A stretch of DNA of 64,000 bases, taken from a phage. This document shows positions 1 through 24,018 of the stretch, piece by piece. Below the pieces are notes generated by a model. It ran no database searches and was not told where the DNA came from. It saw nothing but the letters and a program-made list of their open reading frames with translations. The stretch's first letter is position 1. Each line of letters opens with the position of its first letter. The stretch lies in the sequence record PQ400055.1. One strand, 5' to 3'. A program made the translations under genes and the position numbers.

Positions 1-717
1 CGCAGCACCACCCGAGTGAACAGTTACACCAGTACCACCTTTAATATATGAAGATTTGCCAGCAGCTCCCAAATCTCCACCATCTCCTCCATAATGAACC
101 CCAGAAACAGTGCCTTTACCTGGGGCAGAAATTGTACCAGCAGATGCTGCCGCTGCGCCGCCTCCTGCCGCACCCGCAGCACCAAATGGACGGCCTCCAC
201 CGCCGCCAAATTTCATATCCATTTGAGGGAAAGGATTGTATCTAGCACCAGCACCGCCACCACCGCCACCACCAATAATACCATTATTGTTTATTCTTAA
301 ACGAGTTCCAATTCCGTTATTTATTGCATTTCCTCCTGCTCCACCAGCAGAGTTACTTCCGCCATTTCCTCCACGACCTAATACATGAACACCAGAGTTA
401 ATAATGAGTGTTACATATTCGTTTGTCAGTGAGCTAGGGAAATCAAGACAAGGAACGCCAGTAGATTGGGAAACAATATTACCCGTGATAGTAATTACTA
501 CCGGAGTAGATCCTTGTGCTTTCATCCAGTTAATAAGAGTGTCTTTATTGTAAGAGTTACTAGCACCAATGCTATAATGAATCTCTTTAGAGCGTCCGAC
601 CATTGCCGACATATACGCCGGACGACCTAAGCGAACAGCTTGCATTGCGGCGCTCATCCACCGTTGACCAGTCTCGGACACAGCAGATGATCCTACCCAT
701 CCAGAAGATATTGCCAT
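1..717 (-). CDS. 38: gp38-like tail-fibre adhesin, N-terminal part (ORF runs off the window start)
   Basis: Hand translation of the reverse strand from ATG at 715-717: MAISSGWVGSSAVSETGQRWMS...GRGGNGGSNSAGGAGG...GGGGGGGAGA...GGGGRPFGAAG; matches N-terminus and glycine-rich motifs of T2-type gp38 as recalled; SD GAGGAA upstream. Confidence 0.7.
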   Translation of the reverse strand, partial: MAISSGWVGSSAVSETGQRWMSAAMQAVRLGRPAYMSAMVGRSKEIHYSIGASNSYNKDTLINWMKAQGSTPVVITITGNIVSQSTGVPCLDFPSSLTNEYVTLIINSGVHVLGRGGNGGSNSAGGAGGNAINNGIGTRLRINNNGIIGGGGGGGAGARYNPFPQMDMKFGGGGGRPFGAAGAAGGGAAAASAGTISAPGKGTVSGVHYGGDGGDLGAAGKSSYIKGGTGVTVHSGGAA

Positions 718-730
718 AAAATTTCCTCAC

Positions 731-753
731 AAGAAAAGCCCCAATTAAGGGGC
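731..753 (-). terminator. putative intrinsic terminator (GCCCC-loop-GGGGC then U-run on minus strand)
   Basis: Inverted repeat gcccc/ggggc at 738-753 followed on minus strand by T-rich run; short stem, weak. Confidence 0.35.
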
Positions 754-771
754 ATTGATTGATAATATTAC

Positions 772-993
772 TTAGATGACCTCTGCTTCACCATTCAGGA
801 AGAAAGACCATGTTTTGTTAGGATAGCGAAGCGCCCATGATTCAGCGGTTTTAACACCAGCTTCGAACAATTGACGGCTGGTTACTTTAGCCATACCATC
901 TTCGATGGCAACGTTTTCAATAATCATCGGGTACTTAGCGCCACGCATGAAACCGAAGCCAGCGGAAGATTTGATAATTTTAACCGTTGCCAT
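772..993 (-). CDS. hypothetical protein (73 aa)
   Basis: ORF with AGGAGA SD, downstream of early promoter copy. Confidence 0.5.
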   Translation of the reverse strand: MATVKIIKSSAGFGFMRGAKYPMIIENVAIEDGMAKVTSRQLFEAGVKTAESWALRYPNKTWSFFLNGEAEVI

Positions 994-1034
994 TTTTGAT
1001 TCTCCTAGAAAGTGTATCTCGTTTCGATGTGTGT

Positions 1035-1063
1035 ATTATGCAATAACACCGGATCGCTGTCAA
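1035..1063 (-). promoter_or_regulatory. sigma70-type early promoter (TTGACA-N17-CATAAT) with conserved leader
   Basis: Reverse strand reads TTGACA, 17-nt spacer, CATAAT, then conserved leader ...cacatcgaaac... and SD; member of a repeated promoter family. Confidence 0.6.
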
Positions 1064-1081
1064 CACTTTCTAAGAAAAATT

Positions 1082-1366
1082 TTAAATTAATCTAATATAG
1101 CCCAGAATTTCAGCACTTTTAGCCAGTCCTAAAACTTCCCATTCAAGGTCGCCGTAGTCATAATTTGCAACCATCAACTGACCATTTTTCATGCAGCATT
1201 CATGAGAGAAAATTTGCCCCGCATAAACTACGATAGTAATAAACTTTCCTGATTCTGGCGGTGTGGAAGACAAAGCGACCATATGACCATTCAGCTTAGT
1301 CACCAGTGATGGAACAATAAAATTCGGGCTTACCTGAATACCGTTAAATTCGTTTGTGTCTTTCAT
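1082..1366 (-). CDS. hypothetical protein (94 aa)
   Basis: ORF in overlapping-stop/start operon of four small genes. Confidence 0.5.
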   Translation of the reverse strand: MKDTNEFNGIQVSPNFIVPSLVTKLNGHMVALSSTPPESGKFITIVVYAGQIFSHECCMKNGQLMVANYDYGDLEWEVLGLAKSAEILGYIRLI

Positions 1367-1713
1367 GCCAGACCTCGCAAAACACTAATAGCATAATCAT
1401 GCTGGTTATTCATAATATCGATTGCATTGTGATAACGAGCTAAACCATCAAGGATAAATTCTTGTTTATCCTGTTTCAGTTTGGTATCACGCGCAGCCAT
1501 AAGAGCATCAAGAACAGGTCCAAAGTGATTATCTAATTCATCTTCGGTTGCAATGTTTCCTATTGCCTCGTCGATCCGTGATTCTAATGCTTGCTTTTCG
1601 TTGATCACTTGCTGGGTATATTCCAACACATCAAGAATATCGCGGGTAACGTCGCCATGATAAGGTATTCCCGCATGAAGATGATCAATTAGTCGTTGAA
1701 TGTCAATGTTCAT
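1363..1713 (-). CDS. hypothetical protein (116 aa)
   Basis: ORF, start overlaps upstream stop (translational coupling). Confidence 0.5.
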   Translation of the reverse strand: MNIDIQRLIDHLHAGIPYHGDVTRDILDVLEYTQQVINEKQALESRIDEAIGNIATEDELDNHFGPVLDALMAARDTKLKQDKQEFILDGLARYHNAIDIMNNQHDYAISVLRGLA

Positions 1714-2048
1714 TTGTAACCCTCCTCTGAAAGCACATCCCAGATCGTTGAGTCAAGGTGCATTAAATTCCACATAATAGAGTCATAACTACCGAAGCCA
1801 GAAGTAAAAATTACATCACACTGGCGATAGGTCTTATGAAAATCGGTGGCTGTCTCTGCATCAATAGGCATATCGTCACCGGAAAGCACCAGACATTTAA
1901 GAATCATAACTCTGTTAGCCGTTGGCGCTTGCTTAGTCTTTTCAGCATATTTTTCGATGATCCGTTTTGCCTTTTCTTCTTTGATACGTCCAGACCAAAT
2001 CCGGTTTCGGTATTGATTCATAATAATTTCAATCACATCATTTTGCAT
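1710..2048 (-). CDS. hypothetical protein (112 aa)
   Basis: ORF in coupled operon. Confidence 0.5.
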   Translation of the reverse strand: MQNDVIEIIMNQYRNRIWSGRIKEEKAKRIIEKYAEKTKQAPTANRVMILKCLVLSGDDMPIDAETATDFHKTYRQCDVIFTSGFGSYDSIMWNLMHLDSTIWDVLSEEGYK

Positions 2049-2247
2049 TCTTCACGGTCTCCATAATTGTTTTGTAAGCCAGTTTAAGATGATCACCGAA
2101 AAACTTTGCGGTGTTACCCTTCGGATCGCGGAGCATGGTTTCTACGATCTCATCGGCAGTAACAATTTCTCCTTTCTTTGCTGCATGTTCTACCATATAC
2201 TTCAAAGTTTCTTCGGAAGCAAGTGCTGCCGCTACTGGATTAATCAT
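2038..2247 (-). CDS. hypothetical protein (69 aa)
   Basis: ORF immediately downstream of early promoter and AGGAGA SD. Confidence 0.5.
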   Translation of the reverse strand: MINPVAAALASEETLKYMVEHAAKKGEIVTADEIVETMLRDPKGNTAKFFGDHLKLAYKTIMETVKNAK

Positions 2248-2277
2248 TTTTGATTCTCCTTTGTTGTCGATGTGTGC

Positions 2278-2306
2278 ATTATGCTATACCCTATTCCGGT
2301 TGTCAA
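2278..2306 (-). promoter_or_regulatory. sigma70-type early promoter (TTGACA-N17-CATAAT)
   Basis: Same conserved promoter/leader family; reverse strand TTGACA ... CATAAT. Confidence 0.6.
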
Positions 2307-2311
2307 CACCT

Positions 2312-2341
2312 AAAAACGAAAAAGCCACCCTTTCGGATGGC
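2312..2341 (-). terminator. intrinsic terminator
   Basis: Hairpin gccaccc-tttc-ggatggc (with G.U) followed on minus strand by UUUUUCGUUUUU. Confidence 0.65.
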
Positions 2342-2575
2342 TTTTGATTATATTTTATTCACGTCCATTTGTATAGTAGTGTTTGAATCGACCTTTGCTA
2401 AACTAGTTAAACATAGTAACCAATTCACCATCCCTTTCCAATGATAACCCTTCCTCGTCTTAGACGGGTCTTCCGATTCGGCAGTAATTGAACACGCGAA
2501 AGTATGAGGAAGCCAAATAGTTGTGTTAATGCTAGTATTCTTTTACTTCTGGTATGCATCCCACGGTGACTAACA

Positions 2576-2975
2576 TTAAGACAGTCGAGTGAGTTTATAA
2601 ATTGTTTTAAAACATAGAGCTTTGATATCGTCTAAAACGCTCTGTAACGAGCTATCAACATCATTATAAATCTCACTAGCCATTTGCGTTAACTCTTGCA
2701 AATAGGCAATTTCGCTAATCTCCTTGCGGACGACCAACGTTGGCTGATAACGACCAGTGATCCCAATATTGGTTTCAGTGAAATCATCAACCAATTCTTG
2801 CATTTCAAGATAGAACTCTTCTAGAGCCTTATGTTTTGCATAAGATCCAGGACCAGTTACTCCAAAATGCGCAGAATGCATATAAGTAACACTCATCAGA
2901 CATTCACCGATAAAGCGGTCAACTTTATTAGCTTTCCCCTCTTCGGACGTCTTTCGAAAATCACTGAATTTCATG
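2576..2975 (-). CDS. hypothetical protein (rI.-1 position)
   Basis: ORF; likely start MKFSDFRK at 2973-2975 with GGAGA SD; the longer 165-aa extension in the ORF track overlaps rI. Confidence 0.5.
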
Positions 2976-3263
2976 TTCTCGATTCTCCATATTATGCAAC
3001 ATAACAAACTGTTGTGCGGCATATTCCCCCATAATAAAACACTGCTTAGAATCCATACATTTACTACGAGCATACATCTTCATAATATGGGCATGAAATT
3101 TCTGGCTGGTTTCAATGGAAGGAGATATTTTGTTTACATATACTATCATTGCACCGTCGAAATAATCAGTAAAATCACCAGTTGGATCATATTGATCAGC
3201 ACTGACACTTCCGACCGCAGTCAAGCATATTGCCGCTGTTAGAGTTTTACGAATAAATGACAT
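2961..3263 (-). CDS. rI: lysis-inhibition regulator RI-like periplasmic protein
   Basis: Signal peptide MSFIRKTLTAAICLTAVGSVSA; DP..F...Y and C....C...G....Q pattern resembles T4 RI as recalled; sits next to tk as in T4. Confidence 0.6.
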   Translation of the reverse strand: MSFIRKTLTAAICLTAVGSVSADQYDPTGDFTDYFDGAMIVYVNKISPSIETSQKFHAHIMKMYARSKCMDSKQCFIMGEYAAQQFVMLHNMENREHEIQ

Positions 3264-3331
3264 AAGTCATTCCCCCAGATTAAAAATATTCAGTTATATT
3301 TATAATCTGGGGCTTTATTTATGATTAACTC

Positions 3332-3928
3332 TTATTTGGTAGTACCGTCAATAAAATGTTTACGGCACACAGAGACATATTTATCCTCTGCACCAACTTC
3401 TATTTGAGCACCATCGCGAATAACATTACCCTCTTTATCTACACGAAGGACCATTGTTGCTTTCTTGCCACAATGACAAATACCCTTCATTTCGACCAGT
3501 TTATCAGCAAATGCCATTAATGCCGCAGATCCTTCAAATAGATTGCCCTGAAAGTCGGTGCGAAGGCCATAGCACAGTACAGGGATATTTGCATCATCGA
3601 CAAGCGCACACAAGCCTAAAACATGCTCTTTAGTCATAAATTGGGCTTCATCTACAAATACAGCATCAGGACGCCATCGATCCGGTCTACGCTTACCTAA
3701 CGATTCACGATAAACCAAATCGAAAAGATCATCCGATTTAGTGAAGGTGATCGCTGGAGCACTTAGACCAATTCGGGAAACAACTTCACTTTCTGAATCT
3801 CGATTATCAATCGCTGGCTTAAGAATTAATACTCGCATATCACGTTCGGTATAGTTATAAGCACTTTGTAACAGAGAAGTTGATTTGCCAGCGTTCATAG
3901 ATGCATAGTAGAAATATAGTTGCGCCAT
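3332..3928 (-). CDS. tk: thymidine kinase
   Basis: P-loop MNAGKST, DEAQF, C-terminal Zn motif CHCGKKA...CRKH; typical TK1-family architecture. Confidence 0.95.
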   Translation of the reverse strand: MAQLYFYYASMNAGKSTSLLQSAYNYTERDMRVLILKPAIDNRDSESEVVSRIGLSAPAITFTKSDDLFDLVYRESLGKRRPDRWRPDAVFVDEAQFMTKEHVLGLCALVDDANIPVLCYGLRTDFQGNLFEGSAALMAFADKLVEMKGICHCGKKATMVLRVDKEGNVIRDGAQIEVGAEDKYVSVCRKHFIDGTTK

Positions 3929-4221
3929 TAATTAATCTCCAAAAATCCAGCAAGACCTAAACCGATATAAGTCCAGATACAAAGGAAAAAGAAGCAAACA
4001 CCCATAGCAAAGATAAATCCTCGTAGTGTCTTTGGATAACCTACCCAATATTCCCGACCATCTTCTAACCGGATCAGCTTATTTCCTTGAGAGTCCATAT
4101 CAATTACAACATGTTTATTTCTGGATTGTAACAGATATTGCTTGACAATCTCAATACCCGCCATAATAACAATAACGAAATTGAAAGTCCACATAACAAG
4201 GTTAATGGTAGTCTCAAGCAT
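3928..4221 (-). CDS. small membrane protein
   Basis: Two hydrophobic segments; start overlaps tk stop. Confidence 0.5.
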   Translation of the reverse strand: MLETTINLVMWTFNFVIVIMAGIEIVKQYLLQSRNKHVVIDMDSQGNKLIRLEDGREYWVGYPKTLRGFIFAMGVCFFFLCIWTYIGLGLAGFLEIN

Positions 4222-4456
4222 TTTCTATCACCTCCACCCAATCAGGCGTTTCCTGAAATACTCCTTCGCCTTCGTGGTGGATGCATCCTTTATTGCTACA
4301 ATACATCCACCAATCCCACATTCCCCACGGTAAACGCTGCATATCGTCGTTACAGCAAGTGAAGACAATAGGCAAACCACATCTAACACATCGGCAGTTT
4401 TCCTTCATGTGAGCGGTATTAGGCTTCTTCATAGATGACTCCAATATAATCGACAT
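4214..4456 (-). CDS. Cys-rich zinc-ribbon-like small protein
   Basis: CRCVRCG...CC...C motifs. Confidence 0.45.
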   Translation of the reverse strand: MSIILESSMKKPNTAHMKENCRCVRCGLPIVFTCCNDDMQRLPWGMWDWWMYCSNKGCIHHEGEGVFQETPDWVEVIENA

Positions 4457-4659
4457 TTACATTTAGGGCAATGCGGTTCTTTAATATAATACCCGTCTGT
4501 CTTTGGAACACTAACAGGAGCGGTTTTTATATTGTATTCCGTGAAACAACGAAAACAAGTTACGTTTTCCACAGACTGACGTTTCACCCAATAACCGGAA
4601 TAGAGGTCATTTTTATTTGTCATATTCCACCACCACAATGTTAATGTCTGGAGTAGCAA
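4429..4659 (-). CDS. Cys-rich zinc-ribbon-like small protein
   Basis: CFRC...CPKCKC motifs. Confidence 0.45.
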   Translation of the reverse strand: MLLQTLTLWWWNMTNKNDLYSGYWVKRQSVENVTCFRCFTEYNIKTAPVSVPKTDGYYIKEPHCPKCKCRLYWSHL

Positions 4660-5068
4660 TATTAATGATTTCTTCTACACATTCCCACTCAAGGCCACCG
4701 ATACCGCAACCGATTTTAGGGATATAGAAAGGCTGTATAGCACCTTCAAAAACATCATTGAGAGTCTCAAATCCTTTCAGGATAGCACCATATTCAGCAT
4801 TTGGACCCGGTCGGAATTGGGTATAGAGATTCACCCCGCACCAGTTATAACCATTAACTTGATGCGTCCAGACACTAAACCCACCCAACTTTTCTACCTT
4901 ACCGCGAGAAGTTTGCTTGTCAATCTCTAACGCTTGCGGGAACTCTTTCGCGATATCCGCAGCAATACCAGCGCCCATAGTATGAAAACAATTACAACCA
5001 TGAATTAAATGACCGTTTCCTTGTTTAAACAGGGCGATGAGATCGCCCTTTACAGTATCAATAATCAT
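4613..5068 (-). CDS. macro-domain (ADP-ribose binding/processing) protein
   Basis: N-terminal GDL...HGCNCFHTMGAGIAADIA and C-terminal IPKIGCGIGGL match the macro-domain signature segments (NAAN..GGGV.GAI and FP.ISTG.YG). Confidence 0.7.
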   Translation of the reverse strand: MIIDTVKGDLIALFKQGNGHLIHGCNCFHTMGAGIAADIAKEFPQALEIDKQTSRGKVEKLGGFSVWTHQVNGYNWCGVNLYTQFRPGPNAEYGAILKGFETLNDVFEGAIQPFYIPKIGCGIGGLEWECVEEIINIATPDINIVVVEYDK

Positions 5069-5083
5069 AATATAAACCTCTCA

Positions 5084-5443
5084 TTAGTCACGGGAAGACA
5101 ACCCAGCCATAAAACGGCTTAACAGTGTGTCGCGATAAGCAAAGCATAATTGCTTATCAGGGGCAGTATCACACAGGTTACGTTTTGTTTTAGCAAAGCT
5201 GGCAATACTCAGATCCCACGCTCGATTTTTTCGTTTTTCGTCTCGACCTTGTTTGTATGCCTCGTCAAGTTCAAGCGCGATAAAATCGCTACACATGTTA
5301 TCATCATCACAGAAGGTTTTAATGATCTTTTTGTTGATCTCAAATCCTTTGTATTCGAACTTTGGATAAGGGCGCTCATTACTAGCAAGCGCACCAGCCG
5401 AGAACATCATAGCAATCATAGCAACTATTGTCAACTTTTTCAT
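5084..5443 (-). CDS. secreted/periplasmic Cys-containing protein
   Basis: Signal peptide MKKLTIVAMIAMMFSAGALA; several Cys. Confidence 0.5.
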   Translation of the reverse strand: MKKLTIVAMIAMMFSAGALASNERPYPKFEYKGFEINKKIIKTFCDDDNMCSDFIALELDEAYKQGRDEKRKNRAWDLSIASFAKTKRNLCDTAPDKQLCFAYRDTLLSRFMAGLSSRD

Positions 5444-5450
5444 ATATTCC

Positions 5451-6041
5451 TCAATAGCGTTTAGTTTTAAGAATGCCTTTACTCTTTAGATGGTTAGCCT
5501 TTTTTAGTACGTCATCAGCATAGCCTAACCCAGCTTTATAGTTCCATCCAGCATTGTAAGAAGCTAGCGCGAGTCGGATATTACCGTTTCTAACATCCAG
5601 CCAGTATGCTAACTCATCCATCGCGTAGAATGCAGAAACCTCGCGATTCATGATAAAGTTGATAGTCTGGCGATCACTCATTTTAACACCGCGCTTTGCA
5701 TTTTTCGCTTTCACCGTTTTAAGGTAATTTTGAAATAATCCATAAGCATGATGATTTTTCTTTGGTGCTAAGTTTGCACCCGCGCTTGATTCTTGCCATG
5801 CGATACCCGCCAGGATGTGACCTAAACCCTTTCCGTTATAGCGAATATTCGGATGGTCCTTTTTCAACTTACCGCTTTTCTCGAATTGTTCGCCGTATTG
5901 ATAGGCGAAATGTAAATTATCTAGTTGGTGTGCTGTAAAGTTGTCTATCGGCGCTTTTTTGATCGGTGCGCTAGTCGATGCGTGTGTAGCACCAACGGCT
6001 AGTGACAGACTCAATACTATCGCTTTTAGAACTTTTAACAT
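5451..6041 (-). CDS. periplasmic lytic transglycosylase (SLT domain)
   Basis: Signal peptide; SLT motifs ES (AWQESS), GLFQ, SYNAG in canonical order. Confidence 0.7.
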   Translation of the reverse strand: MLKVLKAIVLSLSLAVGATHASTSAPIKKAPIDNFTAHQLDNLHFAYQYGEQFEKSGKLKKDHPNIRYNGKGLGHILAGIAWQESSAGANLAPKKNHHAYGLFQNYLKTVKAKNAKRGVKMSDRQTINFIMNREVSAFYAMDELAYWLDVRNGNIRLALASYNAGWNYKAGLGYADDVLKKANHLKSKGILKTKRY

Positions 6042-6126
6042 TAATTTCTCCTGTTTGGCTTAACTTTCTGATTCCATAATATAGCCATATCACCAGAAAG
6101 TCAAGCATTATTTTAACCAATCTCCA

Positions 6127-6549
6127 TTATTGGTCAACTTTCAAAACAACAGCCGACATTTTACCCGCCAGTCGTTTTGGATTCTCTATAATCATTCGGC
6201 AGCATAGACCGTGATATGGCTTACCGTCTTCAATTAGGTCTACTGTCATCCCGATCCACATGTTACCGTCAGTAATTTCTAATCGATTAGGTCGGTCTTC
6301 CATTTTCAGGAAGTCGAAGATCTCCGGCAAACGAGTTTCTACCTTATTGAATAGTTCCATTGTCTTATGTTCATCGATATGACGATCGGTTAGACGGTCG
6401 ATCATATGCGGACTAAAGCGAATGAAAATATACTCACCGTAACCATTATTCAAGCACTTTTCTTTGATTTGTGCGTTAGTCTTACGCATTTCAGTTTCGA
6501 AGAATCTGCGCAGCTTGCTACGGCGAACATGTACGTTAATTGTTTCCAT
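6127..6549 (-). CDS. regB: RegB-like sequence-specific endoribonuclease
   Basis: METINVHVRRSKLRRFFE...RLEITDGNMW...CRMIIENPKRLAGK resembles T4 RegB as recalled; start taken at internal Met 6547-6549. Confidence 0.8.
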   Translation of the reverse strand: METINVHVRRSKLRRFFETEMRKTNAQIKEKCLNNGYGEYIFIRFSPHMIDRLTDRHIDEHKTMELFNKVETRLPEIFDFLKMEDRPNRLEITDGNMWIGMTVDLIEDGKPYHGLCCRMIIENPKRLAGKMSAVVLKVDQ

Positions 6550-6553
6550 TTTA

Positions 6554-6889
6554 TTATCCTTTCTTAAACAAATTGCGAAGCCAGTATACAAACGGGATTT
6601 CTTTAAACTTGAATTTCTCTATAGTTAATTCTTTAGTAGCAAGATGAATACCATAAGCATCATGTGTCACGATATGCCATTTTCTATAGTCCAAATGTGA
6701 ACAACCGTCTGGATCTAGGTTAATAAGAGTTTCTCGCTCACTAGGATTATTTTTCCACAATTTTGTAATAGGATCGCACATAATTCGACCTAGCGTACCA
6801 TGAATAATCTCACAACGGTAAAGTTTTCCAGCAGTGAGATAGGCGCACCCGTCATAGTCGGTATAAACAAACACTTCTTTAACACTCAT
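6554..6889 (-). CDS. hypothetical protein, member of tandem paralog trio (GCSHL..W motif)
   Basis: Start MSVKEV at 6887-6889 with AAGGAG SD; ORF-track N-terminal extension overlaps promoter. Confidence 0.5.
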   Translation of the reverse strand: MSVKEVFVYTDYDGCAYLTAGKLYRCEIIHGTLGRIMCDPITKLWKNNPSERETLINLDPDGCSHLDYRKWHIVTHDAYGIHLATKELTIEKFKFKEIPFVYWLRNLFKKG

Positions 6890-6917
6890 TTTAATACTCC
6901 TTTGTTTCGATGGGGGT

Positions 6918-6946
6918 ATATTACTACCCCCGTTTTGTTGTGTCAA
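6918..6946 (-). promoter_or_regulatory. sigma70-type early promoter (TTGACA-N17-TAATAT)
   Basis: Promoter-family copy between paralog genes. Confidence 0.5.
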
Positions 6947-7207
6947 CTACTTTTTCAAGATTTTTTTAATTGCGTTCCAAAGACCTTTATTCTCAGGTTG
7001 TTTTGGTTCTTCGATTAGTGTCCATGTTCGACCGTCTAAGTGTGCACAATTTTTAAGACAAATAAAAATCTGGTGTCCCTTATCATCACGGATATAACCA
7101 CTATTCGCAAATCTTTCATGTGGTGTATATTCATACAGTGTATTTGGTGTAATATACTTGCGGTTACTATAAGGTGTCATCACATACATCATGGTACTAA
7201 CTCCCAT
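6947..7207 (-). CDS. hypothetical protein, tandem paralog (C.HLDGR.W motif)
   Basis: Shares Y.(Y/F)TP...GYI(R/K)DD.G...C.HL.G..W pattern with neighbour. Confidence 0.5.
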   Translation of the reverse strand: MGVSTMMYVMTPYSNRKYITPNTLYEYTPHERFANSGYIRDDKGHQIFICLKNCAHLDGRTWTLIEEPKQPENKGLWNAIKKILKK

Positions 7208-7383
7208 TTATCACCGCGAAGATGAGAACATCCACCATCAAGAAGTATCGTAATACGATAACCTATATCATCTTTGATGTAACCGATTGTCGGTGGATTT
7301 TCGTCGTCTCGTGTCGGGGTAAAATCATACATCTTTCCGGGCGTAATATCTTGTCCTTTATTGCTATTGGTATAAACTTTCAT
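7189..7383 (-). CDS. hypothetical protein, tandem paralog (GCSHLRGDKW motif)
   Basis: Paralog of 6947-7207. Confidence 0.5.
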   Translation of the reverse strand: MKVYTNSNKGQDITPGKMYDFTPTRDDENPPTIGYIKDDIGYRITILLDGGCSHLRGDKWELVP

Positions 7384-7404
7384 TTTCTTAATCTCCTATA
7401 TTAA

Positions 7405-8103
7405 CTAACCACGGGTATAGTGTTCCAGAACAACTGTCAGATGAATATATTCTAATAGATCTTTCCAAAAGTCAACATCTGGTTCTTCCGGCATACCGTT
7501 TTTCTTTGCCTCTTCACGCGCGAGTTTAACACGCTCGTAGAGATCTTTCAATTCTTCCCGCACATTATCAAAGGTTCTTTCTCCTAACTTACACGCTAAA
7601 ATAGAAGAACGTCGCGCGAGCGGGAATTGTAAATCACCTGTCTGATAGATTTCAAGTAGCTGATAACCAACACGCAGAGCATGAGAAAGATCTTTCCAGT
7701 TACTGAAATACTTTTCAGATTTGGCTACCTGCTTTTTGAGATAGCCAGACAAACCCCACATACCAACATGATAGAATTTATCGCGATGTGTTCGGATGTA
7801 TTCCCATTCTCTGGAGGATTCAACCAACATGTTACTAGGCGCGTGCACCATGTCAATAGCGCCGATATCGCCTTTACATGCCAGGTTGATAAACCGTTTT
7901 AGACTGAACATATTAACGTCAATATCGTCTTTGGTGTTCTTGATACCTTGACCGCTAGTGCTTTGATCATAGTGTTCTTTCATCGATCCTAAGATAATTT
8001 CTTTCGCAGTCGGAACAAAGATACCACGATAATCTTTATCGGAGTTTTCAGTATCAAGGCAGTATAAGTGAGATCCGAAAACCATTTTAACCATTGTATG
8101 CAT
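7405..8103 (-). CDS. pol-beta-superfamily nucleotidyltransferase-fold protein
   Basis: N-terminal GS-x10-DxD motif (GSHLYCLDTENSDKD) followed by helical domain. Confidence 0.55.
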   Translation of the reverse strand: MHTMVKMVFGSHLYCLDTENSDKDYRGIFVPTAKEIILGSMKEHYDQSTSGQGIKNTKDDIDVNMFSLKRFINLACKGDIGAIDMVHAPSNMLVESSREWEYIRTHRDKFYHVGMWGLSGYLKKQVAKSEKYFSNWKDLSHALRVGYQLLEIYQTGDLQFPLARRSSILACKLGERTFDNVREELKDLYERVKLAREEAKKNGMPEEPDVDFWKDLLEYIHLTVVLEHYTRG

Positions 8104-8145
8104 AATTAAACCCTCAGTTGATTAAGAGATTGCATCATATCATCA

Positions 8146-8178
8146 TAAAACGAAAAAGCCAACCCTTTTCGGATTGGC
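8146..8178 (-). terminator. intrinsic terminator
   Basis: Hairpin gccaaccc-ttttc-ggattggc followed by U-run on minus strand. Confidence 0.6.
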
Positions 8179-8189
8179 TTGATGAAAAA

Positions 8190-16069: not shown

Positions 16070-16726
16070 TTAAATGTTCGCGAGAATCTCGCTTTCAAAT
16101 TCTTCTAATGTGCCATTATTTATGATAACTGTTTCACCGTCAATAGGCAAAATTCCTTTTTCGGTGGAGTGAGTCGATACAATACCAGTATCACGCTGAA
16201 TATGCAACACCTTAGCACCCATAGCACGCATAAGAGCAATTTCAATAGGCTGACGCACATCAACCACTACAAAATACCCTTCTTCATTTTTTCGCTTCAT
16301 AAACTCATTCACGAAGAGATTACACCAATAAAGCGGATTGATCAAGTTAACCATTATATCAGTACCGAGAGTGGTTAACATGAGACGAATAGACCAGACG
16401 TTATTATGTTTTTCGCCAATCTCATTAACGACCTTGTAAATCTCAGCCAGACGATCACAAGTAAAGGAACTACCGCCATACTTCGAATCTAGCATAAGCA
16501 GACACTGAATAAACCACTTATGCGCGGTATAGGTATCAATACCTAGATCGGCTTCTCTGTCACGCCCTAACCCGTCAAAGTCAAGATAAGTCAGACCTAA
16601 GTCTGGTTGACATTCGCACAATATTTCTTTGATCGGTGCTGCCAGTTGATAACTATGTCCATCAATGATTAACGCGGCAGTGTCTTTTCCTACTCGCTTT
16701 TTACCACAAAGTGCAATCAATTTCAT
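16070..16726 (-). CDS. 1: deoxynucleoside monophosphate kinase
   Basis: P-loop GKKRVGKDT; size and position as T4 gene 1. Confidence 0.8.
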   Translation of the reverse strand: MKLIALCGKKRVGKDTAALIIDGHSYQLAAPIKEILCECQPDLGLTYLDFDGLGRDREADLGIDTYTAHKWFIQCLLMLDSKYGGSSFTCDRLAEIYKVVNEIGEKHNNVWSIRLMLTTLGTDIMVNLINPLYWCNLFVNEFMKRKNEEGYFVVVDVRQPIEIALMRAMGAKVLHIQRDTGIVSTHSTEKGILPIDGETVIINNGTLEEFESEILANI

Positions 16727-16741
16727 TATATAAGCCTCTTA

Positions 16742-17332
16742 TTACTTTCTAAAAGCAGGGTGCATAGCTTTAATACCTTCCACCCTCTGACGATCCGCCG
16801 CCTGAATTGCTGGGCGAGGAACGATCAGTTGACCATCACGTTCAATGCTCATTGTTTTAAAGGGAAGAATTGCAGTACACACCAGAGATTCATGCATATC
16901 ATCGGTGTATGTTAACTCAAGTTCCCCCAATTGTGAACACCAACAACCATAAAAGTTAAAAGTGCACACAATGTTACGTCGTTCGTTGTCCATCATGTGA
17001 ACTTGAACGGCTTCCGGCATTGAATCCTTCCACGATGTGGAGTTACCGTTATTGTAGTCTACTATAGAAAGCATCCATGTGTAAAGGTTTAGATAGCTTT
17101 CCAAATGCTCATCAACGATAAACCGGACTACCAACGGGTCAAACTCCACATGACTAGACGGATAATCAGCGACCGCCAAACCATATTGACCAGCAACTTG
17201 CTTAGTCGGTGGAATGGTTATAGCCGGAAGTGTAACACCTTGACAGTTTAAAGTAAAGCCTTTTGTTAGTTGACCATCTGGAATGGCAATCTGCCAGTTG
17301 CTAGGGTTAGCATAGTTAAAGAGATTGGACAT
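16742..17332 (-). CDS. 3: tail completion/sheath stabiliser gp3-like
   Basis: Synteny between gene 1 and gene 2. Confidence 0.6.
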   Translation of the reverse strand: MSNLFNYANPSNWQIAIPDGQLTKGFTLNCQGVTLPAITIPPTKQVAGQYGLAVADYPSSHVEFDPLVVRFIVDEHLESYLNLYTWMLSIVDYNNGNSTSWKDSMPEAVQVHMMDNERRNIVCTFNFYGCWCSQLGELELTYTDDMHESLVCTAILPFKTMSIERDGQLIVPRPAIQAADRQRVEGIKAMHPAFRK

Positions 17333-17362
17333 TACGATTCCTTAAATGAAAATATTTATCAA

Positions 17363-17896
17363 CTAAAAATTTAAACTAGCATAATCTCCAAAATGTTCCT
17401 TTGCTGCTTCGTCATAAGCCTTTGCAGCATCAACTTCGTCAAGAAAGACGCCCAAATGGACCTTTCTACGATTGATTGATATCTGAGCACACCATTTGTT
17501 ATTCTGTGTTCTAATCACTCCTTTATACTTACTCTTACAACCATCAAGTTTTCCGCGATTGAACGCATTTTCCTGAGAAGTGGATTCTCTCAAGTTATCC
17601 GGTGCATTATTTTCTCGGTTTCTATCTACATGGTCGATCATTTTAACTTGCGTACCATGTTCAAGATACCAAACAACCCTATGAACTTTAATGACCAAAG
17701 AATAGCCATCACTGCGCCAAAACTTAAAACATAGATAACCTCGACTATTTTTATAAACTTTAACCGGGTCTCCTGCCTTATACCATCGACCATTCTTTCC
17801 ACTATCTTTCAAATGATACAATATACCATTAACGTGTTTATACTTATCTCTAATTTCTTTTTGTGTAAAATCATCCCACATCTTAAAACCAGACAT
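17363..17896 (-). CDS. HNH endonuclease with AP2 DNA-binding domain (homing-endonuclease-like)
   Basis: HVDRNRENNAPDNLRESTSQENAFN (HNH) and YKGVIRTQNNKWCAQISINRRKVHLGVFLDEVDAAKAYDEAA (AP2-like); inserted between genes 3 and 2. Confidence 0.75.
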   Translation of the reverse strand: MSGFKMWDDFTQKEIRDKYKHVNGILYHLKDSGKNGRWYKAGDPVKVYKNSRGYLCFKFWRSDGYSLVIKVHRVVWYLEHGTQVKMIDHVDRNRENNAPDNLRESTSQENAFNRGKLDGCKSKYKGVIRTQNNKWCAQISINRRKVHLGVFLDEVDAAKAYDEAAKEHFGDYASLNF

Positions 17897-18001
17897 ACAT
17901 TTTCTCCTGATATTATTAATAACAACATCAATCTAACACATCCAGTATATAATGTCAATTGTCGCTTTGCGACGTGCCGTAGGCACTGACTACTTTTTAA
18001 C

Positions 18002-18057
18002 CGAAACAAATTTTTATTATTCTAAAGATCTTTCTTCGTTTTGGTTATGTTTTAACC
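18002..18057 (+). repeat. repeat element copy A (cgaaacaaatttttattattctaaagatctttcttcgttttggttatgttttaacc)
   Basis: Matches copies B and C near gp24; upstream of plus-strand 84-aa ORF. Confidence 0.7.
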
Positions 18058-18113
18058 AATAACTATATTTTTATACAGTAATAAATAAAACTGGTACTAT
18101 ACGAGGACTTCTT

Positions 18114-18368
18114 ATGACAGAAGACATTTTGTTAAAACTCTATGATCGTCTGGATAACGAATTAGCAACATTGCGGGGTGAAGTTCTCTATTTGTCTAAA
18201 TGCAATACAGATCTGCTTAAGCAGATTGCAGAAAGGGATGATCAAATAAAATCCCTTTCAGGTGCATTACGTGATCGCGACAAGGCATTAGAGATTTTAC
18301 AGCGTGTTACCAATAAGGAAGAATTAAAAGACTTCTTACATGGTTATGCTCATGCCATCGATCTATAA
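18114..18368 (+). CDS. small coiled-coil protein (84 aa), opposite strand to neighbours
   Basis: GAGGA SD 8 nt upstream; preceded by repeat element A; followed by bidirectional hairpin. Confidence 0.5.
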   Translation: MTEDILLKLYDRLDNELATLRGEVLYLSKCNTDLLKQIAERDDQIKSLSGALRDRDKALEILQRVTNKEELKDFLHGYAHAIDL

Positions 18369-18370
18369 TA

Positions 18371-18400
18371 AAAAAGCCCGTCAATGACGGGCTTAATTTT
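18371..18400. terminator. bidirectional hairpin terminator between convergent genes
   Basis: gcccgtc-aatg-acgggc flanked by A-run and T-rich run. Confidence 0.55.
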
Positions 18401-19430
18401 AATATGTATCAGCTAATTTAATTATGTTATCAAGTTCCGTGATTGTTAAAGTTTCTGTGTATCCATCTTTCAACATGGATTTATCAACAACGCCACAATG
18501 ATAAGTTCTCTTTATTTCCTTTTCAAGTTCCCACGGAATCCAGCCATCAACACTTTGTTTGACGTAAACAAGTTTGTGAACAAACTTAGATTTCTGCATA
18601 TGTTGTTTCATTCTGGTTTCCGGTAATTCATTGGTTACACCAAACTTTATAAATTTATCATCTAACGTCTGGATATAAAAATATCCCATCTCAGATGGAC
18701 GATAGCCAGAAGAACTACATTTCGGACACCCTTTAGATCTATGGCCATCAAAAGTACAAAATCTAACAGAAAACTCCTGATTGTGTTTATTGCACTTCAT
18801 TTTCAACCATGATTTATCAGATCCTATCCATCCACCATCAAATTCAATAAAACTATAATTTAATTGGTCGCATCTTTCAATTATTCGTTTAATAGCCACA
18901 CTTTCTGGTAACAAGTGTGTTGTCTTTTTACTTTCGTTTACACATTTCTTACAACCACATGTTCCACACTTCGTGAAGTTAAAGAATTGTGTGTTCTTCC
19001 AAATATGGTTATGTTTCTTACATTTTAATATCATTTTAGTAGTGACGTGCTTCCACGCACCAACAAAACCTAAAAATTCATAGTTTAATTCCTCACATCT
19101 TTCTTTTGCTATTTTAATAGCGTCTTCTTCTAGTAAAGACCCGTTACACTGCGGACAGCCTACTATAACCTTTTTACCATAGAAACTATTGCTAGAAACA
19201 TCATAGACAGACCCATGCTTATTGCATTGGATAACAGATCTAGTCAATTTTCCTTTCCATTCTCCAGAAAATCCTAAGAATGTATGGTCGACAAGTTTAC
19301 ACCTTTCAATAACTTTATCCGCAAATTCTCTAGGAGATTTTGTTACTTTGTTTACTCTATATTCTATTTCTTCCGGTTGACGAAGATCATAAACGTGGGG
19401 ATTGCTCCCCACGGAATTAATATTACGCAT
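18399..19430 (-). CDS. protein with three Cys4 zinc-ribbon repeats and C-terminal T5orf172/GIY-YIG-like domain
   Basis: Three ~60-aa repeats F(L/I)GF.G.W...C.KH...GCP.C; C-terminal GYFYIQ...KFIKFGVTNELPETRMKQH; start ATG 19428-19430 overlaps gp2 stop (ATGCGTAA). Confidence 0.6.
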   Translation of the reverse strand: MRNINSVGSNPHVYDLRQPEEIEYRVNKVTKSPREFADKVIERCKLVDHTFLGFSGEWKGKLTRSVIQCNKHGSVYDVSSNSFYGKKVIVGCPQCNGSLLEEDAIKIAKERCEELNYEFLGFVGAWKHVTTKMILKCKKHNHIWKNTQFFNFTKCGTCGCKKCVNESKKTTHLLPESVAIKRIIERCDQLNYSFIEFDGGWIGSDKSWLKMKCNKHNQEFSVRFCTFDGHRSKGCPKCSSSGYRPSEMGYFYIQTLDDKFIKFGVTNELPETRMKQHMQKSKFVHKLVYVKQSVDGWIPWELEKEIKRTYHCGVVDKSMLKDGYTETLTITELDNIIKLADTY

Positions 19431-20244
19431 CTTTCCACACCTTCCTTGCATCGTAATTTTTGCCCTTTGACAAGAAACGGAACGTTGGCATGAATATGAC
19501 ATTCCCCCAGTCTTTCGGGCTAATCTCAACAAGTTTTGTTTTAATGTGTCCCGGTAGATATGCTTTGATCATGTGATCACTTCCACGCATACCTTTTACA
19601 TCGCTCCATTTGATTTTTAAGCGTGTTTTATTGCTCAAGGTAGGAGTAGATGCATATTGCTTTAAAAGTGCCTCTAAAAACTGCTGACGGGCTTTAGGAG
19701 TTACATAGTGTAAGTTAAGACCCAACATTACAGTATTACCCGCCTTTGTCTTAGAATCACCCAGACAAATGATCAGCGGGAAAACATCCCAATATGGCAA
19801 AGTGTCTTTATACTTCGCATCATACATAAAGGTATAGATTCGACCTACTTGCGGTTTTACAATCTGGTGTCCCTTTATTCCCGCTTTTATTGTTTTAGTA
19901 AACCACTCCTGTGATTTTTCTTTAGGACGACTCTTTGATACAGCACGCATAGACGCACGAAAATCATTAATCATCATCATTGCGCGTTGCTGCTTATTGA
20001 GACCCTTTGCGCCTTTCCCTTTTAGTTTTTCAACTTCTATTGCTGTTTTAATTTCGCTGGCATAACGAGACATACTTTTAGTGAAAGTCGCATAGGCTAT
20101 TCCCTTAGAATCTGCAAATGCTTTAGCTGTCATTCCTTTGGCTTTTGCTTTCGCAAATTCTACACCCAATTCGACCCACTGTTTAGACTTTCGTTTTTGG
20201 GGAGACGGCTTTTCGTCTTCTGTGATTATTTCAAATACGCTCAT
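19423..20244 (-). CDS. 2: DNA end-protector protein gp2-like
   Basis: Size (273 aa) and synteny between gp3-region and gp4. Confidence 0.7.
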   Translation of the reverse strand: MSVFEIITEDEKPSPQKRKSKQWVELGVEFAKAKAKGMTAKAFADSKGIAYATFTKSMSRYASEIKTAIEVEKLKGKGAKGLNKQQRAMMMINDFRASMRAVSKSRPKEKSQEWFTKTIKAGIKGHQIVKPQVGRIYTFMYDAKYKDTLPYWDVFPLIICLGDSKTKAGNTVMLGLNLHYVTPKARQQFLEALLKQYASTPTLSNKTRLKIKWSDVKGMRGSDHMIKAYLPGHIKTKLVEISPKDWGNVIFMPTFRFLSKGKNYDARKVWKDA

Positions 20245-20255
20245 AATATTATCCT

Positions 20256-20729
20256 CTATTTGTTAAGCCCTTTAAAGCCAAACACTTTCTTTAATGCATG
20301 TTCGGTGATGATCTTAAACTCCATGTTATGCTTTTGGCATAATTTCACGGCAGCTAACCATTTTTCAGTATTTTTTGTGTACGTCCACACTTCATGCATA
20401 TATCGTTGCTTTGTCTTTGCGGTCATTCTTTTTGGCTTTTCCGGTGGCCTTGTCTCTTTAGCTGGTTTAACTTCCCATAAATGCTCCTTGCCATCATCAA
20501 ACTTAACGTAAAAATCCATAAAGTATCTGTGTCTTTTCCCGTCTGTTGATGACTCATAAGGAATTACTACGGTCTCAGATCCCCATTTTGCAACTCTAGG
20601 ATTGCGGTCTAGCCACTGCATGATCCATCTTTCCCAGCTTGAACGGTATGTGATCTTACGTATATCCCCTTTATACTTTTCCTTATTCTCAGGAACATAC
20701 TTGCCCTTATAAGTGTTAGATCCTCCCAT
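20256..20729 (-). CDS. 4: head completion protein gp4-like
   Basis: Size (157 aa), synteny next to gene 53; YRSSWE...DFYVKF...EVKP motif. Confidence 0.7.
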   Translation of the reverse strand: MGGSNTYKGKYVPENKEKYKGDIRKITYRSSWERWIMQWLDRNPRVAKWGSETVVIPYESSTDGKRHRYFMDFYVKFDDGKEHLWEVKPAKETRPPEKPKRMTAKTKQRYMHEVWTYTKNTEKWLAAVKLCQKHNMEFKIITEHALKKVFGFKGLNK

Positions 20730-20730
20730 T

Positions 20731-20783
20731 TTAGCACCCTTTATTATAAATACATAATACTATTTATCAATTGAGGGTGCTAA
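20731..20783. repeat. perfect 9-bp inverted repeat (ttagcaccc / gggtgctaa) bracketing the gp4/gp53 divergent control region
   Basis: Arms at 20731-20739 and 20775-20783 enclose TATAAATA late promoter. Confidence 0.6.
20745..20752 (+). promoter_or_regulatory. T4-type late promoter TATAAATA
   Basis: Exact TATAAATA 33 nt upstream of gp53 ATG. Confidence 0.6.
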
Positions 20784-20784
20784 A

Positions 20785-21339
20785 ATGCTCTTTTCTTTCT
20801 TCCCTGCCATTGAATACAACGGCAAGATGATTACTGACATTGTGCGCAATTACCGCGCATATTTCAACGCAATAATTTCTGATTATAACATACAAACATA
20901 TTACATTCAAGGTAGTCCACGACCGGAACAAGTTGCATATGAAGTATACGGAAACCAACAACTTTATTGGATCTTGCTGATGCTTAATGACGTATACGAC
21001 CCGTTCCATGACTGGATCACCGATCAAGAGACAGCATATGAATCAGCCGAACAACGATATGCAAACGTAGGAGGAAATCAAGTATTATACCACGTTGATA
21101 TTGACGGAAACAAGTATTGGAATCTTACCGAATATCCGAAAGGATCAAGCAATTGGTATGATAAAGGGGATATTCATCACCGTCATTTGCAGTTTCAGGG
21201 TGCATTATCGGCAGTAGACACACTGGAAGATGCGATCCTCCGTAATGAGGAACGACGCAAGATCAAGATCATAGATCCTACACAAATTAAACAATTTATT
21301 AACGCATTCATTCGAGAAATGGAAAAGGCTGATGTGTAA
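20785..21339 (+). CDS. 53: baseplate wedge protein gp53
   Basis: MLFSFFPAIEY...TYYIQGSPRPE...YWILLMLNDVYDP matches T4 gp53 as recalled. Confidence 0.9.
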   Translation: MLFSFFPAIEYNGKMITDIVRNYRAYFNAIISDYNIQTYYIQGSPRPEQVAYEVYGNQQLYWILLMLNDVYDPFHDWITDQETAYESAEQRYANVGGNQVLYHVDIDGNKYWNLTEYPKGSSNWYDKGDIHHRHLQFQGALSAVDTLEDAILRNEERRKIKIIDPTQIKQFINAFIREMEKADV

Positions 21340-23158: not shown

Positions 23159-23725
23159 ATGGTTGAAATTCTTCCGATGAGTTCAAAATTGGAGGATATC
23201 AGCGAGCGAGAAATCTTTGAGGTGGTGTTCTCTTATAAAGCAACGCCACCGGATGCAAATACCACATACACGATTAAAGAGTTTAAGATCAGCGAGTATC
23301 GCCCTAATAAGGGCGTTACCGTTGAAGAAACTAAAATATCTGGTGAGTATCGGGATAGTTTTTCGCTTGGCGCGGATTCTCTTAAATATATAACGAAAGA
23401 TAGAATTAAAAAATCTGCCGGAAGTTTTGATGATTTACCAGATCCAACTACCGCAGATCTATATTATTTTAACGCTCCTACACGTCTACAGGAGGTTTAT
23501 ACTTATAAAGTAACCCTAACCTATATCCAATCTGTTTCAGAGTCTTCTGGCGGTTCTGGTGAAGGAAATAGTGGTGGTTCCAATAGCCGAGAGGGTGCTG
23601 GTGAAACTAATCCGCCTCCGGTAGTAACAGAACACACAATAGAGAAAGTTTATACTCAAACCGTTTTTGGAAATTGGGATGTGTGGAGTAAACAGTTAAG
23701 AGATTATGTACATAGGGGTGTTTAA
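23159..23725 (+). CDS. hypothetical protein (gene 5.1 position)
   Basis: ORF between gp5 and gp5.4. Confidence 0.5.
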
Positions 23726-24018
23726 TGGCTGGATTATCCTACGATAAAGCTAAAACTACAGGGCACGGAAACTACCCACCTACGGTAATTAATGCAACTC
23801 AATCTAAGGTATTTGTTGAGGGTATCCCTGTATTAGTCGAAGGAGACCCAATTACACCACATACAAAAACAACAAAGCCTTATGATACACACGGGGGAAC
23901 TACGGTCGCCAGTACCCCGAAAGTATTTGTTACCGGAAAGAAAGCAATTCAAATGGCAGATCGTATTAGCTGTGGCGATACCGTCGCTATGGCATCACCG
24001 AAGGTATTCATAAAATGA
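23725..24018 (+). CDS. 5.4: PAAR-repeat spike tip protein gp5.4-like
   Basis: 97 aa, same size and position as T4 gp5.4. Confidence 0.75.

What the first reader, a model, noticed from the sequence alone, without database searches (positions are those of the whole stretch)
1..717. gp38-type adhesin gene located next to the rI/tk early region and on the opposite strand to the late structural block
Seen in sequence: the reverse-strand ORF starting at 715-717 matches T2-type gp38 N-terminus and glycine-rich motifs. Upstream of it are a 73-aa ORF and early-type genes, not gene 37, and it is oriented opposite to genes 53-24. Established knowledge (recalled): in T4/T2 gene 38 follows gene 37 and is co-oriented with other late genes, far from tk. 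Inference: a genome rearrangement or a relocated or second adhesin copy, relevant to host range.
Basis: partly seen in the sequence, partly recalled or inferred. Interest (0 to 1): 0.5.

Follow-up and report, generated by a model that had tools for sequence, protein, structure and literature searches.

The report
RB49-type phage adhesin gene 38
The window starts inside the ordinary, single-copy tail-fibre adhesin gene (gene 38) of an RB49-like coliphage, and its position near rI/tk, far from gene 37, is the usual layout of this phage genus, first reported in 2002.

Summary
Window 1-717 (minus strand) encodes the first 239 of 261 residues of a T2/S16-type gp38 adhesin (Pfam GP38 5e-60, Gp38_N 5e-19; PDB 6F45 chain D 4e-44). 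The gene sits in an early-type, minus-strand gene block about 2.2 kb from rI and 2.6 kb from tk, opposite in orientation to genes 53-24.

The window is a Krischvirus (RB49-like) genome, 99.5% identical to phage W115 over its first 6 kb. In RB49, W115 and about 44 other database records, gene 38 lies at exactly this site. Gene 37 lies about 105 kb away (55 kb round the circular map) on the other strand, followed by a small ORF and the holin gene t. Each genome checked has only one gp38 gene, so this is neither a second copy nor a fresh rearrangement. The displacement is published (Trojet 2011, citing Desplats 2002; a 2026 preprint).

Three by-products are worth noting:
- The receptor-binding segment (window 1-358) is 93-98% nucleotide-identical to K3/RB18-like Tequatrovirus gene 38.
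- About a quarter of Krischvirus records lack this cassette. Those checked instead carry a T6-like g37-g38 module at the canonical site.
- No late promoter lies within 2.6 kb upstream, so how the gene is transcribed is unresolved.

The parts
1..717 (-). Gene 38: codons 1-239 of a 261-codon T2/S16-type long-tail-fibre adhesin. The last 22 codons and the stop lie beyond the window start.
   Evidence: W115 has the full-length gene. The window differs from W115 at 4 nt, giving 1 amino-acid change, G231V at window nt 26.
598..717 (-). Gp38_N domain (aa 1-40), the part that attaches to the gp37 tip. It is the genus-specific (RB49-like) part of the gene.
   Evidence: Pfam PF21721, 4.8e-19. Over gene nt 1-120 it is 83-97% nt identical to RB49 but only 60-63% to Tequatrovirus REP4.
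1..358 (-). Receptor-binding segment with glycine-rich motifs and hypervariable loops (gene nt 360-717), of Tequatrovirus K3/RB18 type.
   Evidence: In 60-nt windows it is 87-98% (mostly 93-98%) nt identical to REP4 gene 38 and 35-73% to RB49 gene 38. This explains why megablast matches to RB49-type records start only at window ~246-254.
718..771 (-). 54-nt leader: Shine-Dalgarno GAGG (725-728) and a terminator-like hairpin GCCCC-TTAATT-GGGGC followed by TTTTCTT (738-753). No promoter is recognisable in it.
   Evidence: dG -11.2 kcal/mol. Almost identical in RB49 and W115, with one loop change. Annotated as a terminator in GEC-3S.
772..993 (-). 73-aa ORF of unknown function (homologue of RB49 ORF080c, phrog_7345), first gene of the promoter-to-terminator unit that also holds gene 38.
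   Evidence: Found only in Krischvirus records, 58 of them at >=95% aa identity. It is also present in genomes that lack gene 38 at this site.
1035..1063 (-). Near-consensus sigma-70 early promoter, TTGACA-17-CATAAT, in front of the 73-aa ORF.
   Evidence: 11 of 12 matches. Conserved in RB49 and W115. Annotated as a promoter in GEC-3S.
2278..2345 (-). Terminator stem-loop plus early promoter (a PeSL-type regulatory cassette) upstream in the same transcription direction.
   Evidence: dG -16.6. The PeSL concept is from Arbiol 2010.
3297..3304 (-). Nearest upstream late-promoter motif, TATAAATA, between tk and rI, 2.6 kb upstream of gene 38.
   Evidence: It corresponds to the predicted RB49 late promoter Pl:48756.
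2961..3928 (-). rI (antiholin) and tk (thymidine kinase), the landmark genes named in the finding.
   Evidence: RB49 and W115 annotation.

Best explanation
This is the single, functional gene 38 of a Krischvirus (RB49-like T4-type coliphage). Its product is a T2/T6/S16-type adhesin.

Mechanism (from the S16 structure and RB49 genetics, not tested here): one gp38 monomer binds through its N-terminal domain to the tip of the gp37 trimer, after gp37's C-terminal chaperone domain has cut itself off. The glycine-rich C-terminal domain of gp38 then presents variable loops that recognise the host receptor. For RB49-like phages the published receptors are OmpA and certain O antigens.

Location: in this genus the gene is not next to gene 37. 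It sits as a cassette of about 920 bp in the variable early region between nrdC and rI/tk. The cassette consists of a leader with a hairpin, gene 38, a terminator and an early promoter. This layout is inherited and typical of the genus, and it has been known since 2002.

Expression (inferred only): the gene is probably transcribed by read-through of the weak upstream hairpin. The transcripts would start either at the early promoter at 1063-1035 or at the late promoter in front of rI.
For: Identity of the gene: Pfam GP38 and Gp38_N; PDB 6F45_D at 4e-44.

Identity of the genome: 99.5% to W115 and 96-99% to more than 50 Krischvirus records over window 1-6000.

Same locus in relatives:
- RB49: gene 38 at 45367-46143 (-), between ORF078c and ORF080c.
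- W115 and GEC-3S show the same arrangement.
- 44 records cover the junction between ORF080c and gene 38.

Gene 37 is elsewhere: RB49 151717-154656 (+) and W115 151220-154135 (+), each followed by ORF251w and t.

Single copy: one tblastn place per record in all 60 best-ranked records, which include the RB49-type Krischviruses and W115.

Partner gene of the expected type: W115 gp37 carries a C-terminal Peptidase_S74 chaperone domain and weakly matches S16 gp37.

Function shown by others: RB49 host-range mutants are gp38 E230K and Y231S.

Displacement published: Trojet 2011; 2026 preprint.

Cassette structure.
Against: Nothing contradicts the identification. The weak points are these:
- The window ends inside the gene, so its 3' end, gene 37 and the absence of a second copy are inferred from near-identical relatives, not from this genome.
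- No late promoter is recognisable near the gene, and no transcription data for any Krischvirus were found. The expression route is therefore conjecture.
- The hairpin upstream of the gene looks like a terminator, which argues against efficient read-through.
Confidence: 0.95

Rival explanations
1. A recent rearrangement, or an extra (second) adhesin copy, specific to this genome.
For: Only the contrast with the T4/T2 gene order, which is confirmed for Tequatroviruses.
Against: The junction is identical in RB49 (sequenced in the early 2000s), W115, GEC-3S and about 44 records. There is one gp38 place per Krischvirus record.
Confidence: 0.02
2. On origin: the gene at this site was not moved from beside gene 37. 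An ancestor of the genus acquired it independently, by horizontal transfer as a regulatory-cassette-bounded module, into a genome whose gene 37 had no adjacent adhesin gene.
For: - The cassette boundaries fall exactly at the ORF080c stop codon and just 3' of an early-promoter -10 box, the kind of site Arbiol 2010 links to modular shuffling.
- Gene 38 is demonstrably exchanged between genera.
- ORF251w after gene 37 is not a replacement for gene 38, because KMB43 has g37-g38-ORF251w-t.
- The 2026 preprint lists this option.
Against: - The N-terminal gp37-binding part is only 60-80% nt identical to any Tequatrovirus gene 38. If there was a transfer it is old, and it cannot be told apart from an internal move.
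- No promoter remnant is visible in the leader, so simple recombination between two regulatory cassettes does not explain the left junction.
Confidence: 0.4
3. On expression: gene 38 here is an early, sigma-70-driven gene, co-transcribed with the 73-aa ORF from the promoter at 1063-1035. That would be unlike gene 38 at the canonical site in other T4-type phages, where it follows gene 37 in the late tail-fibre gene block.
For: - A near-consensus early promoter lies 320 nt upstream, with only a 5-bp GC hairpin in between.
- There is no late-promoter motif for 2.6 kb.
- A strong terminator follows immediately after the gene.
- Only six gp38 copies are needed per virion (established knowledge).
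Against: - The hairpin with its U-tract is terminator-like, and GEC-3S annotators marked it as a terminator.
- The ribosome-binding site lacks the GGAG that marks many early genes (20 of 49 early versus 4 of 36 late). It closely resembles that of the late sheath gene, though this is weak evidence.
- A late promoter in front of rI could feed read-through transcripts.
Confidence: 0.3
4. Assembly or chimera artefact joining an adhesin gene to early genes.
For: None.
Against: Independent assemblies from many laboratories share the junction at 96-99% identity.
Confidence: 0.01

Closest known systems
Gene 38 of phage RB49 and other Krischvirus members (W115, MIZ2/3/6, kaaroe, Brandy49)
   Same: - Same locus, same flanking ORFs, same leader and hairpin.
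- The W115 protein, which differs from the window's by one residue (G231V), is 100% identical to MIZ6 and kaaroe and 96.9% to Brandy.
- Brandy49-type gp38 has been described as the most divergent in the group and is linked to the broadest host range.
   Different: - One amino-acid difference from W115 (G231V).
- Only 78% aa identity to RB49 gp38, because the receptor-binding segment is of another type.
K3/RB18-type gp38 of Tequatroviruses (REP4, Kha5h, RB18, Shfl2, UFV13)
   Same: - 89-91% aa identity over residues 6-261.
- 93-98% nt identity in the receptor-binding segment.
- Same Pfam architecture.
   Different: - There the gene lies directly between gene 37 and t on the late strand.
- The N-terminal attachment domain differs (about 60% nt identity).
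- The partner gp37 proteins are only 34-44% identical, and only locally.
Salmonella phage S16 gp38-gp37 complex (PDB 6F45)
   Same: Clear sequence homology over the whole gp38 (4e-44). gp37 has a C-terminal chaperone domain.
   Different: It is a different genus. The exposed loops differ, and so does the receptor.
T4 gp38 (tail-fibre assembly chaperone)
   Same: Same gene number, and a role connected with the distal long tail fibre.
   Different: It is an unrelated protein family (Trojet 2011, abstract). T4 gp38 is not part of the virion, and in T4 the adhesin is the gp37 tip itself.
PeSL promoter/stem-loop regulatory cassettes of RB49 and phi1 (Arbiol et al. 2010)
   Same: - Gene 38 is followed by a stem-loop terminator plus a TTGACA-N17-TATAAT promoter.
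- The 'empty' site in KMB43 holds a 37-bp PeSL with the stem-loop between -35 and -10.
   Different: The upstream side of gene 38 has a hairpin but no promoter. The Arbiol paper does not discuss gene 38.

Membership tests
T2/T6/S16-type gp38 tail-fibre adhesin (Pfam PF05268 + PF21721) | N-terminal gp37-attachment domain (Gp38_N) | tested here: met
   PF21721 at 4.8e-19, residues 1-40. Aligned to S16 gp38 residues 1-40.
T2/T6/S16-type gp38 tail-fibre adhesin (Pfam PF05268 + PF21721) | C-terminal domain with glycine-rich motifs alternating with hypervariable segments | tested here: met
   PF05268 at 5e-60, residues 45-239. Glycine runs are visible in the translation. Variability is concentrated between them.
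T2/T6/S16-type gp38 tail-fibre adhesin (Pfam PF05268 + PF21721) | [quoted passage not shown] | tested here: met
   Tested on W115, not on the window. Peptidase_S74 at 1.2e-11, gp37 residues 863-922. Weak match to S16 gp37, 6F45_A, 3e-5.
T2/T6/S16-type gp38 tail-fibre adhesin (Pfam PF05268 + PF21721) | Gene immediately downstream of gene 37 (typical context, not part of the protein-family definition) | tested here: not met
   Gene 37 is about 105 kb away on the other strand in RB49 and W115. This is the known Krischvirus exception.
T2/T6/S16-type gp38 tail-fibre adhesin (Pfam PF05268 + PF21721) | Present in the virion and determines the receptor | not testable with these tools
   Published for RB49-like phages: gp38 E230K and Y231S change host range.
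Genus Krischvirus (RB49-like phages) | High nucleotide identity and shared gene order with RB49 | tested here: met
   96-99.5% identity over window 1-6000 to more than 50 Krischvirus records. Gene order matches RB49 and W115.
T4-type gp38 (assembly chaperone) | Sequence similarity to T4 gp38 | tested here: not met
   Only the adhesin families PF05268 and PF21721 were hit.
PeSL-bounded cassette (Arbiol 2010) | Stem-loop plus near-consensus sigma-70 promoter at the cassette border | tested here: inconclusive
   Met at the downstream border in W115 and at the empty site in KMB43. The upstream border has a hairpin only, with no promoter.

The most novel reading that the evidence does not exclude
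The RB49-type gene 38 may be a self-contained, portable host-range cassette expressed from the early, sigma-70-driven transcription unit rather than with the late tail-fibre genes. It is dispensable once a T6-type g37-g38 module is captured. This would explain why about three quarters of Krischvirus records carry it at the rI/tk site and about one quarter lack it there; those checked carry gene 38 after gene 37 instead. I did not find the within-genus polymorphism or the early-type transcription context described in the papers I could read.
Probability: 0.25. Interest if true: 0.35.

Novelty: already known. Interest (0 to 1): 0.12.

Why it matters
It matters little as a discovery. The displaced gene 38 of RB49-like phages is a textbook-level oddity of this genus, and the gene is already recognised as their host-range determinant.

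It is useful for annotation: tail-fibre adhesin finders that look only next to gene 37 will miss it. It is also useful for phage-therapy engineering of Krischvirus host range.

The side observations show that the unusual location does not isolate the gene from the shared T-even adhesin gene pool. These are the cross-genus swap of the receptor-binding segment and the two alternative adhesin locations within one tight genus.

Tried and rejected
- Late promoter near gene 38. An exact TATAAATA, the relaxed ATAAATA and a one-mismatch scan found nothing on the minus strand between 718 and 3296. The only exception was TATGAATA inside an ORF (1407-1414). The AATAAATA at 318-325 lies inside gene 38.
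- Shine-Dalgarno sequestering hairpin, as for T4 lysozyme (e). The fold of 690-790 is no more stable than shuffles (z = 0.26), and the hairpin does not include the ribosome-binding site.
- RegB-site argument. GGAG in the ribosome-binding site is enriched in early-region genes (20/49 versus 4/36, Fisher p = 0.003), and gene 38 lacks it. However, 59% of early-region genes lack it too, so this does not discriminate.
- Functional linkage of the 73-aa ORF with gene 38. Rejected as obligatory, because the ORF is kept in KMB43, where gene 38 is absent from this site. The ORF has no Pfam hit, and its PHROG family has unknown function.
- Desplats 2002 (PMC135041) could not be read.
- No Krischvirus transcriptome paper was found.
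- Arbiol 2010 does not mention gene 38 or its neighbouring ORFs.
- Receptor assignment through the BASEL phage TadeuszReichstein led nowhere.
- Structure prediction was not run, because the sequence match to a solved structure is already decisive.

Full report
**What is in the sequence.**
- The minus strand of window 1-717 is one open frame that starts at the ATG at 717-715 and runs off the window edge, giving 239 codons.
- It matches the two Pfam families that define the T2-type adhesin: GP38 (E=5e-60, residues 45-239) and Gp38_N (E=4.8e-19, residues 1-40).
- It also matches the solved gp38 of Salmonella phage S16, PDB 6F45 chain D, at E=4e-44 over residues 1-231.
- Upstream on the same strand lie a 73-aa ORF (772-993), four further small ORFs, rI.-1, rI (2961-3263) and tk (3332-3928).

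**Where the window comes from.**
- Window 1-6000 is 99.5% identical to Escherichia phage W115 and 96-99% identical to more than 50 other members of the genus Krischvirus, including RB49, Phi1, JSE and GEC-3S.
- Window base 1 corresponds to W115 position 45481. The W115 gene continues 69 nt further and encodes 261 aa.

**Gene 38 and gene 37 in the relatives.**
- In RB49, gene 38 is annotated at 45367-46143 (minus strand) between ORF078c and ORF080c. This is the same neighbourhood as in the window. W115 and GEC-3S show the same arrangement.
- Gene 37 lies at 151717-154656 (plus strand) in RB49 and at 151220-154135 in W115. In both it is followed by a 79-aa ORF (ORF251w/dc5) and the holin gene t.
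- The two genes are thus about 105 kb apart on the linear record, or 55 kb round the circle, on opposite strands.
- tblastn with the W115 protein finds exactly one place in each of the 60 best-ranked records, which include the RB49-type Krischvirus genomes and W115. There is no second copy.
- W115 gp37 carries the C-terminal Peptidase_S74 chaperone domain expected of a gp37 that is capped by a gp38 adhesin. It also weakly matches S16 gp37.

**What is already known.**
- Trojet et al. [quoted passage not shown] - Efimov et al. 2022 showed that gp38 is the receptor-recognising protein of RB49-like phages. Host-range mutants carry gp38 E230K and Y231S, and OmpA and certain O antigens serve as receptors.
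- The finding is therefore real but already known. The reading 'rearrangement or second copy' should be replaced by 'the usual layout of this genus'.

**Anatomy of the locus.** Reading the minus strand, the order is as follows:
- A near-consensus early promoter, TTGACA-17-CATAAT (1063-1035).
- The 73-aa ORF.
- Its stop codon.
- A 54-nt leader with the hairpin GCCCC-TTAATT-GGGGC followed by TTTTCTT (753-738, dG -11.2 kcal/mol) and the Shine-Dalgarno GAGG.
- Gene 38.
- Just beyond the window, seen in W115: a stronger stem-loop terminator (dG -14.7) and another early promoter, TTGACA-N17-TATAAT, which drives the next ORF.

This last element is a typical PeSL regulatory cassette as defined by Arbiol et al. 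2010. The GEC-3S annotators marked the same promoter, terminator, gene, terminator, promoter series.

**Expression (unresolved).**
- No late-promoter motif lies between gene 38 and 3296 on the minus strand, whether searched exactly, in relaxed form or with one mismatch.
- The nearest is TATAAATA at 3297-3304, in front of rI. It corresponds to the only predicted RB49 late promoter in this region, Pl:48756.
- Gene 38 must therefore be reached by read-through of the hairpin. Transcripts could start at the early promoter 320 nt upstream or at the rI late promoter 2.6 kb upstream; the latter route also has to pass a strong terminator at 2345-2320.
- The ribosome-binding site lacks GGAG, the RegB target found in 20 of 49 early-region genes against 4 of 36 late genes. 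It resembles that of the sheath gene, but this is weak evidence.
- No transcript data for any Krischvirus were found. I rate early-promoter-driven expression at about 0.3.

**Side observation 1: the gene is a mosaic.**
- In 60-nt windows, gene nt 1-300 and 721-end are 83-100% identical to RB49 gene 38 (93-100% beyond the first 60 nt).
- Gene nt 360-720 (window 1-358) are mostly 93-98% identical (one window 87%) to gene 38 of Tequatrovirus REP4, and only 35-73% identical to RB49.
- The W115 protein, which differs from the window's by one residue, is 89-91% identical to K3/RB18-type Tequatrovirus adhesins (REP4, Kha5h, RB18, Shfl2), 78% to RB49 and 96.9% to Brandy49.
- Homology to REP4 is confined to the gene itself, and the gp37 proteins are only 34-44% identical locally.
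- The receptor-binding segment has therefore been exchanged between genera, even though the genes sit at different loci. The N-terminal gp37-docking part stays genus-specific. This fits the published model of modular exchange.

**Side observation 2: the location is polymorphic within the genus.**
- In KMB43, the stop codon of the 73-aa ORF is followed directly by a 37-bp PeSL (TTGACAcggggagaaatccccgTATAAT) and then the next ORF. Gene 38 is absent from this site. kvi, MIZ4, G37-3 and UPWr_E1 show the same truncated match and probably share this state.
- KMB43 instead has a T6-like gene 38 (50% aa identity) directly after gene 37, followed by ORF251w and t.
- Its homology to W115 breaks about 130 nt into gene 37 and resumes about 12 nt before the W115 gene 37 stop.
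- The replaced 3.45 kb is 84-90% nt identical to T6-like Tequatroviruses (C2-3, KarlGJung, fPS-65, T6). It recurs in other Krischviruses (LF73P4, FL04, G2494, G5211, FL15).
- Roughly 44 of 58 Krischvirus records have the rI/tk-site gene.
- The simplest reading is that a T6-type g37-g38 module was captured and the now redundant cassette was lost. The direction of change has not been proven.
- ORF251w is kept in both states, so it is not what 'replaced' gene 38.

**Verdict.** Novelty: already known. Interest is low.

Noticed in passing
window 1-358 (-): The receptor-binding segment of gene 38 is mostly 93-98% nt identical to K3/RB18-type Tequatrovirus gene 38 (REP4, Kha5h) but only 35-73% to RB49. 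The 5' 300 nt and the 3' end are RB49-like. This is a cross-genus swap of the specificity segment, and it defines the 'Brandy49/W115/MIZ/kaaroe' adhesin type.
   Followed up: yes
L009 (KMB43) 2829-2891; L010 6145-9762: About a quarter of Krischvirus records lack gene 38 at the rI/tk site, where a 37-bp promoter/stem-loop element sits instead. KMB43, the one examined directly, carries a T6-like g37-g38 module (84-90% nt identical to Tequatroviruses) at the canonical position; five other Krischvirus records carry the same module. I did not find this polymorphism described in the papers I could read.
   Followed up: partly
window 26 (gene nt 692): There is a single amino-acid difference from W115 gp38, G231V, in the distal receptor-binding part. 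It lies next to the positions (230/231 in RB49 numbering) where published host-range mutations map. It may be a host-range variant.
   Followed up: no
L007 10179-10418 (W115), L010 9826-10065 (KMB43): The 79-aa ORF after gene 37 (ORF251w/dc5, phrog_402, no Pfam hit) is retained whether or not gene 38 sits next to gene 37. It is therefore not a stand-in for the displaced adhesin gene, contrary to what the literature wording suggests.
   Followed up: partly
window 700-18000 (-) versus 20000-55000 (+); measured on W115 loci L002 and L004: GGAG within 22 nt upstream of the start codon occurs in 20 of 49 early-region genes but only 4 of 36 late structural genes (Fisher p = 0.003). This is consistent with RegB-type inactivation of early messages, and the phage encodes regB. 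Genes directly behind early promoters share the leader AAGGAGAATCAAA.
   Followed up: partly
window 2278-2345 (-): A strong stem-loop terminator (dG -16.6) is immediately followed by a TTGACA-17-CATAAT promoter. This is a textbook PeSL cassette between rI.-1 and the next small ORF.
   Followed up: no
window ~23725-24015 and somewhere in 6000-21000: The window is not collinear with W115. It lacks the HNH homing-endonuclease gene that W115 has between the ORF after gene 5 and the baseplate needle gene. Gene 5 is also shifted by about 1.6 kb, so the window carries extra DNA upstream of it.
   Followed up: no
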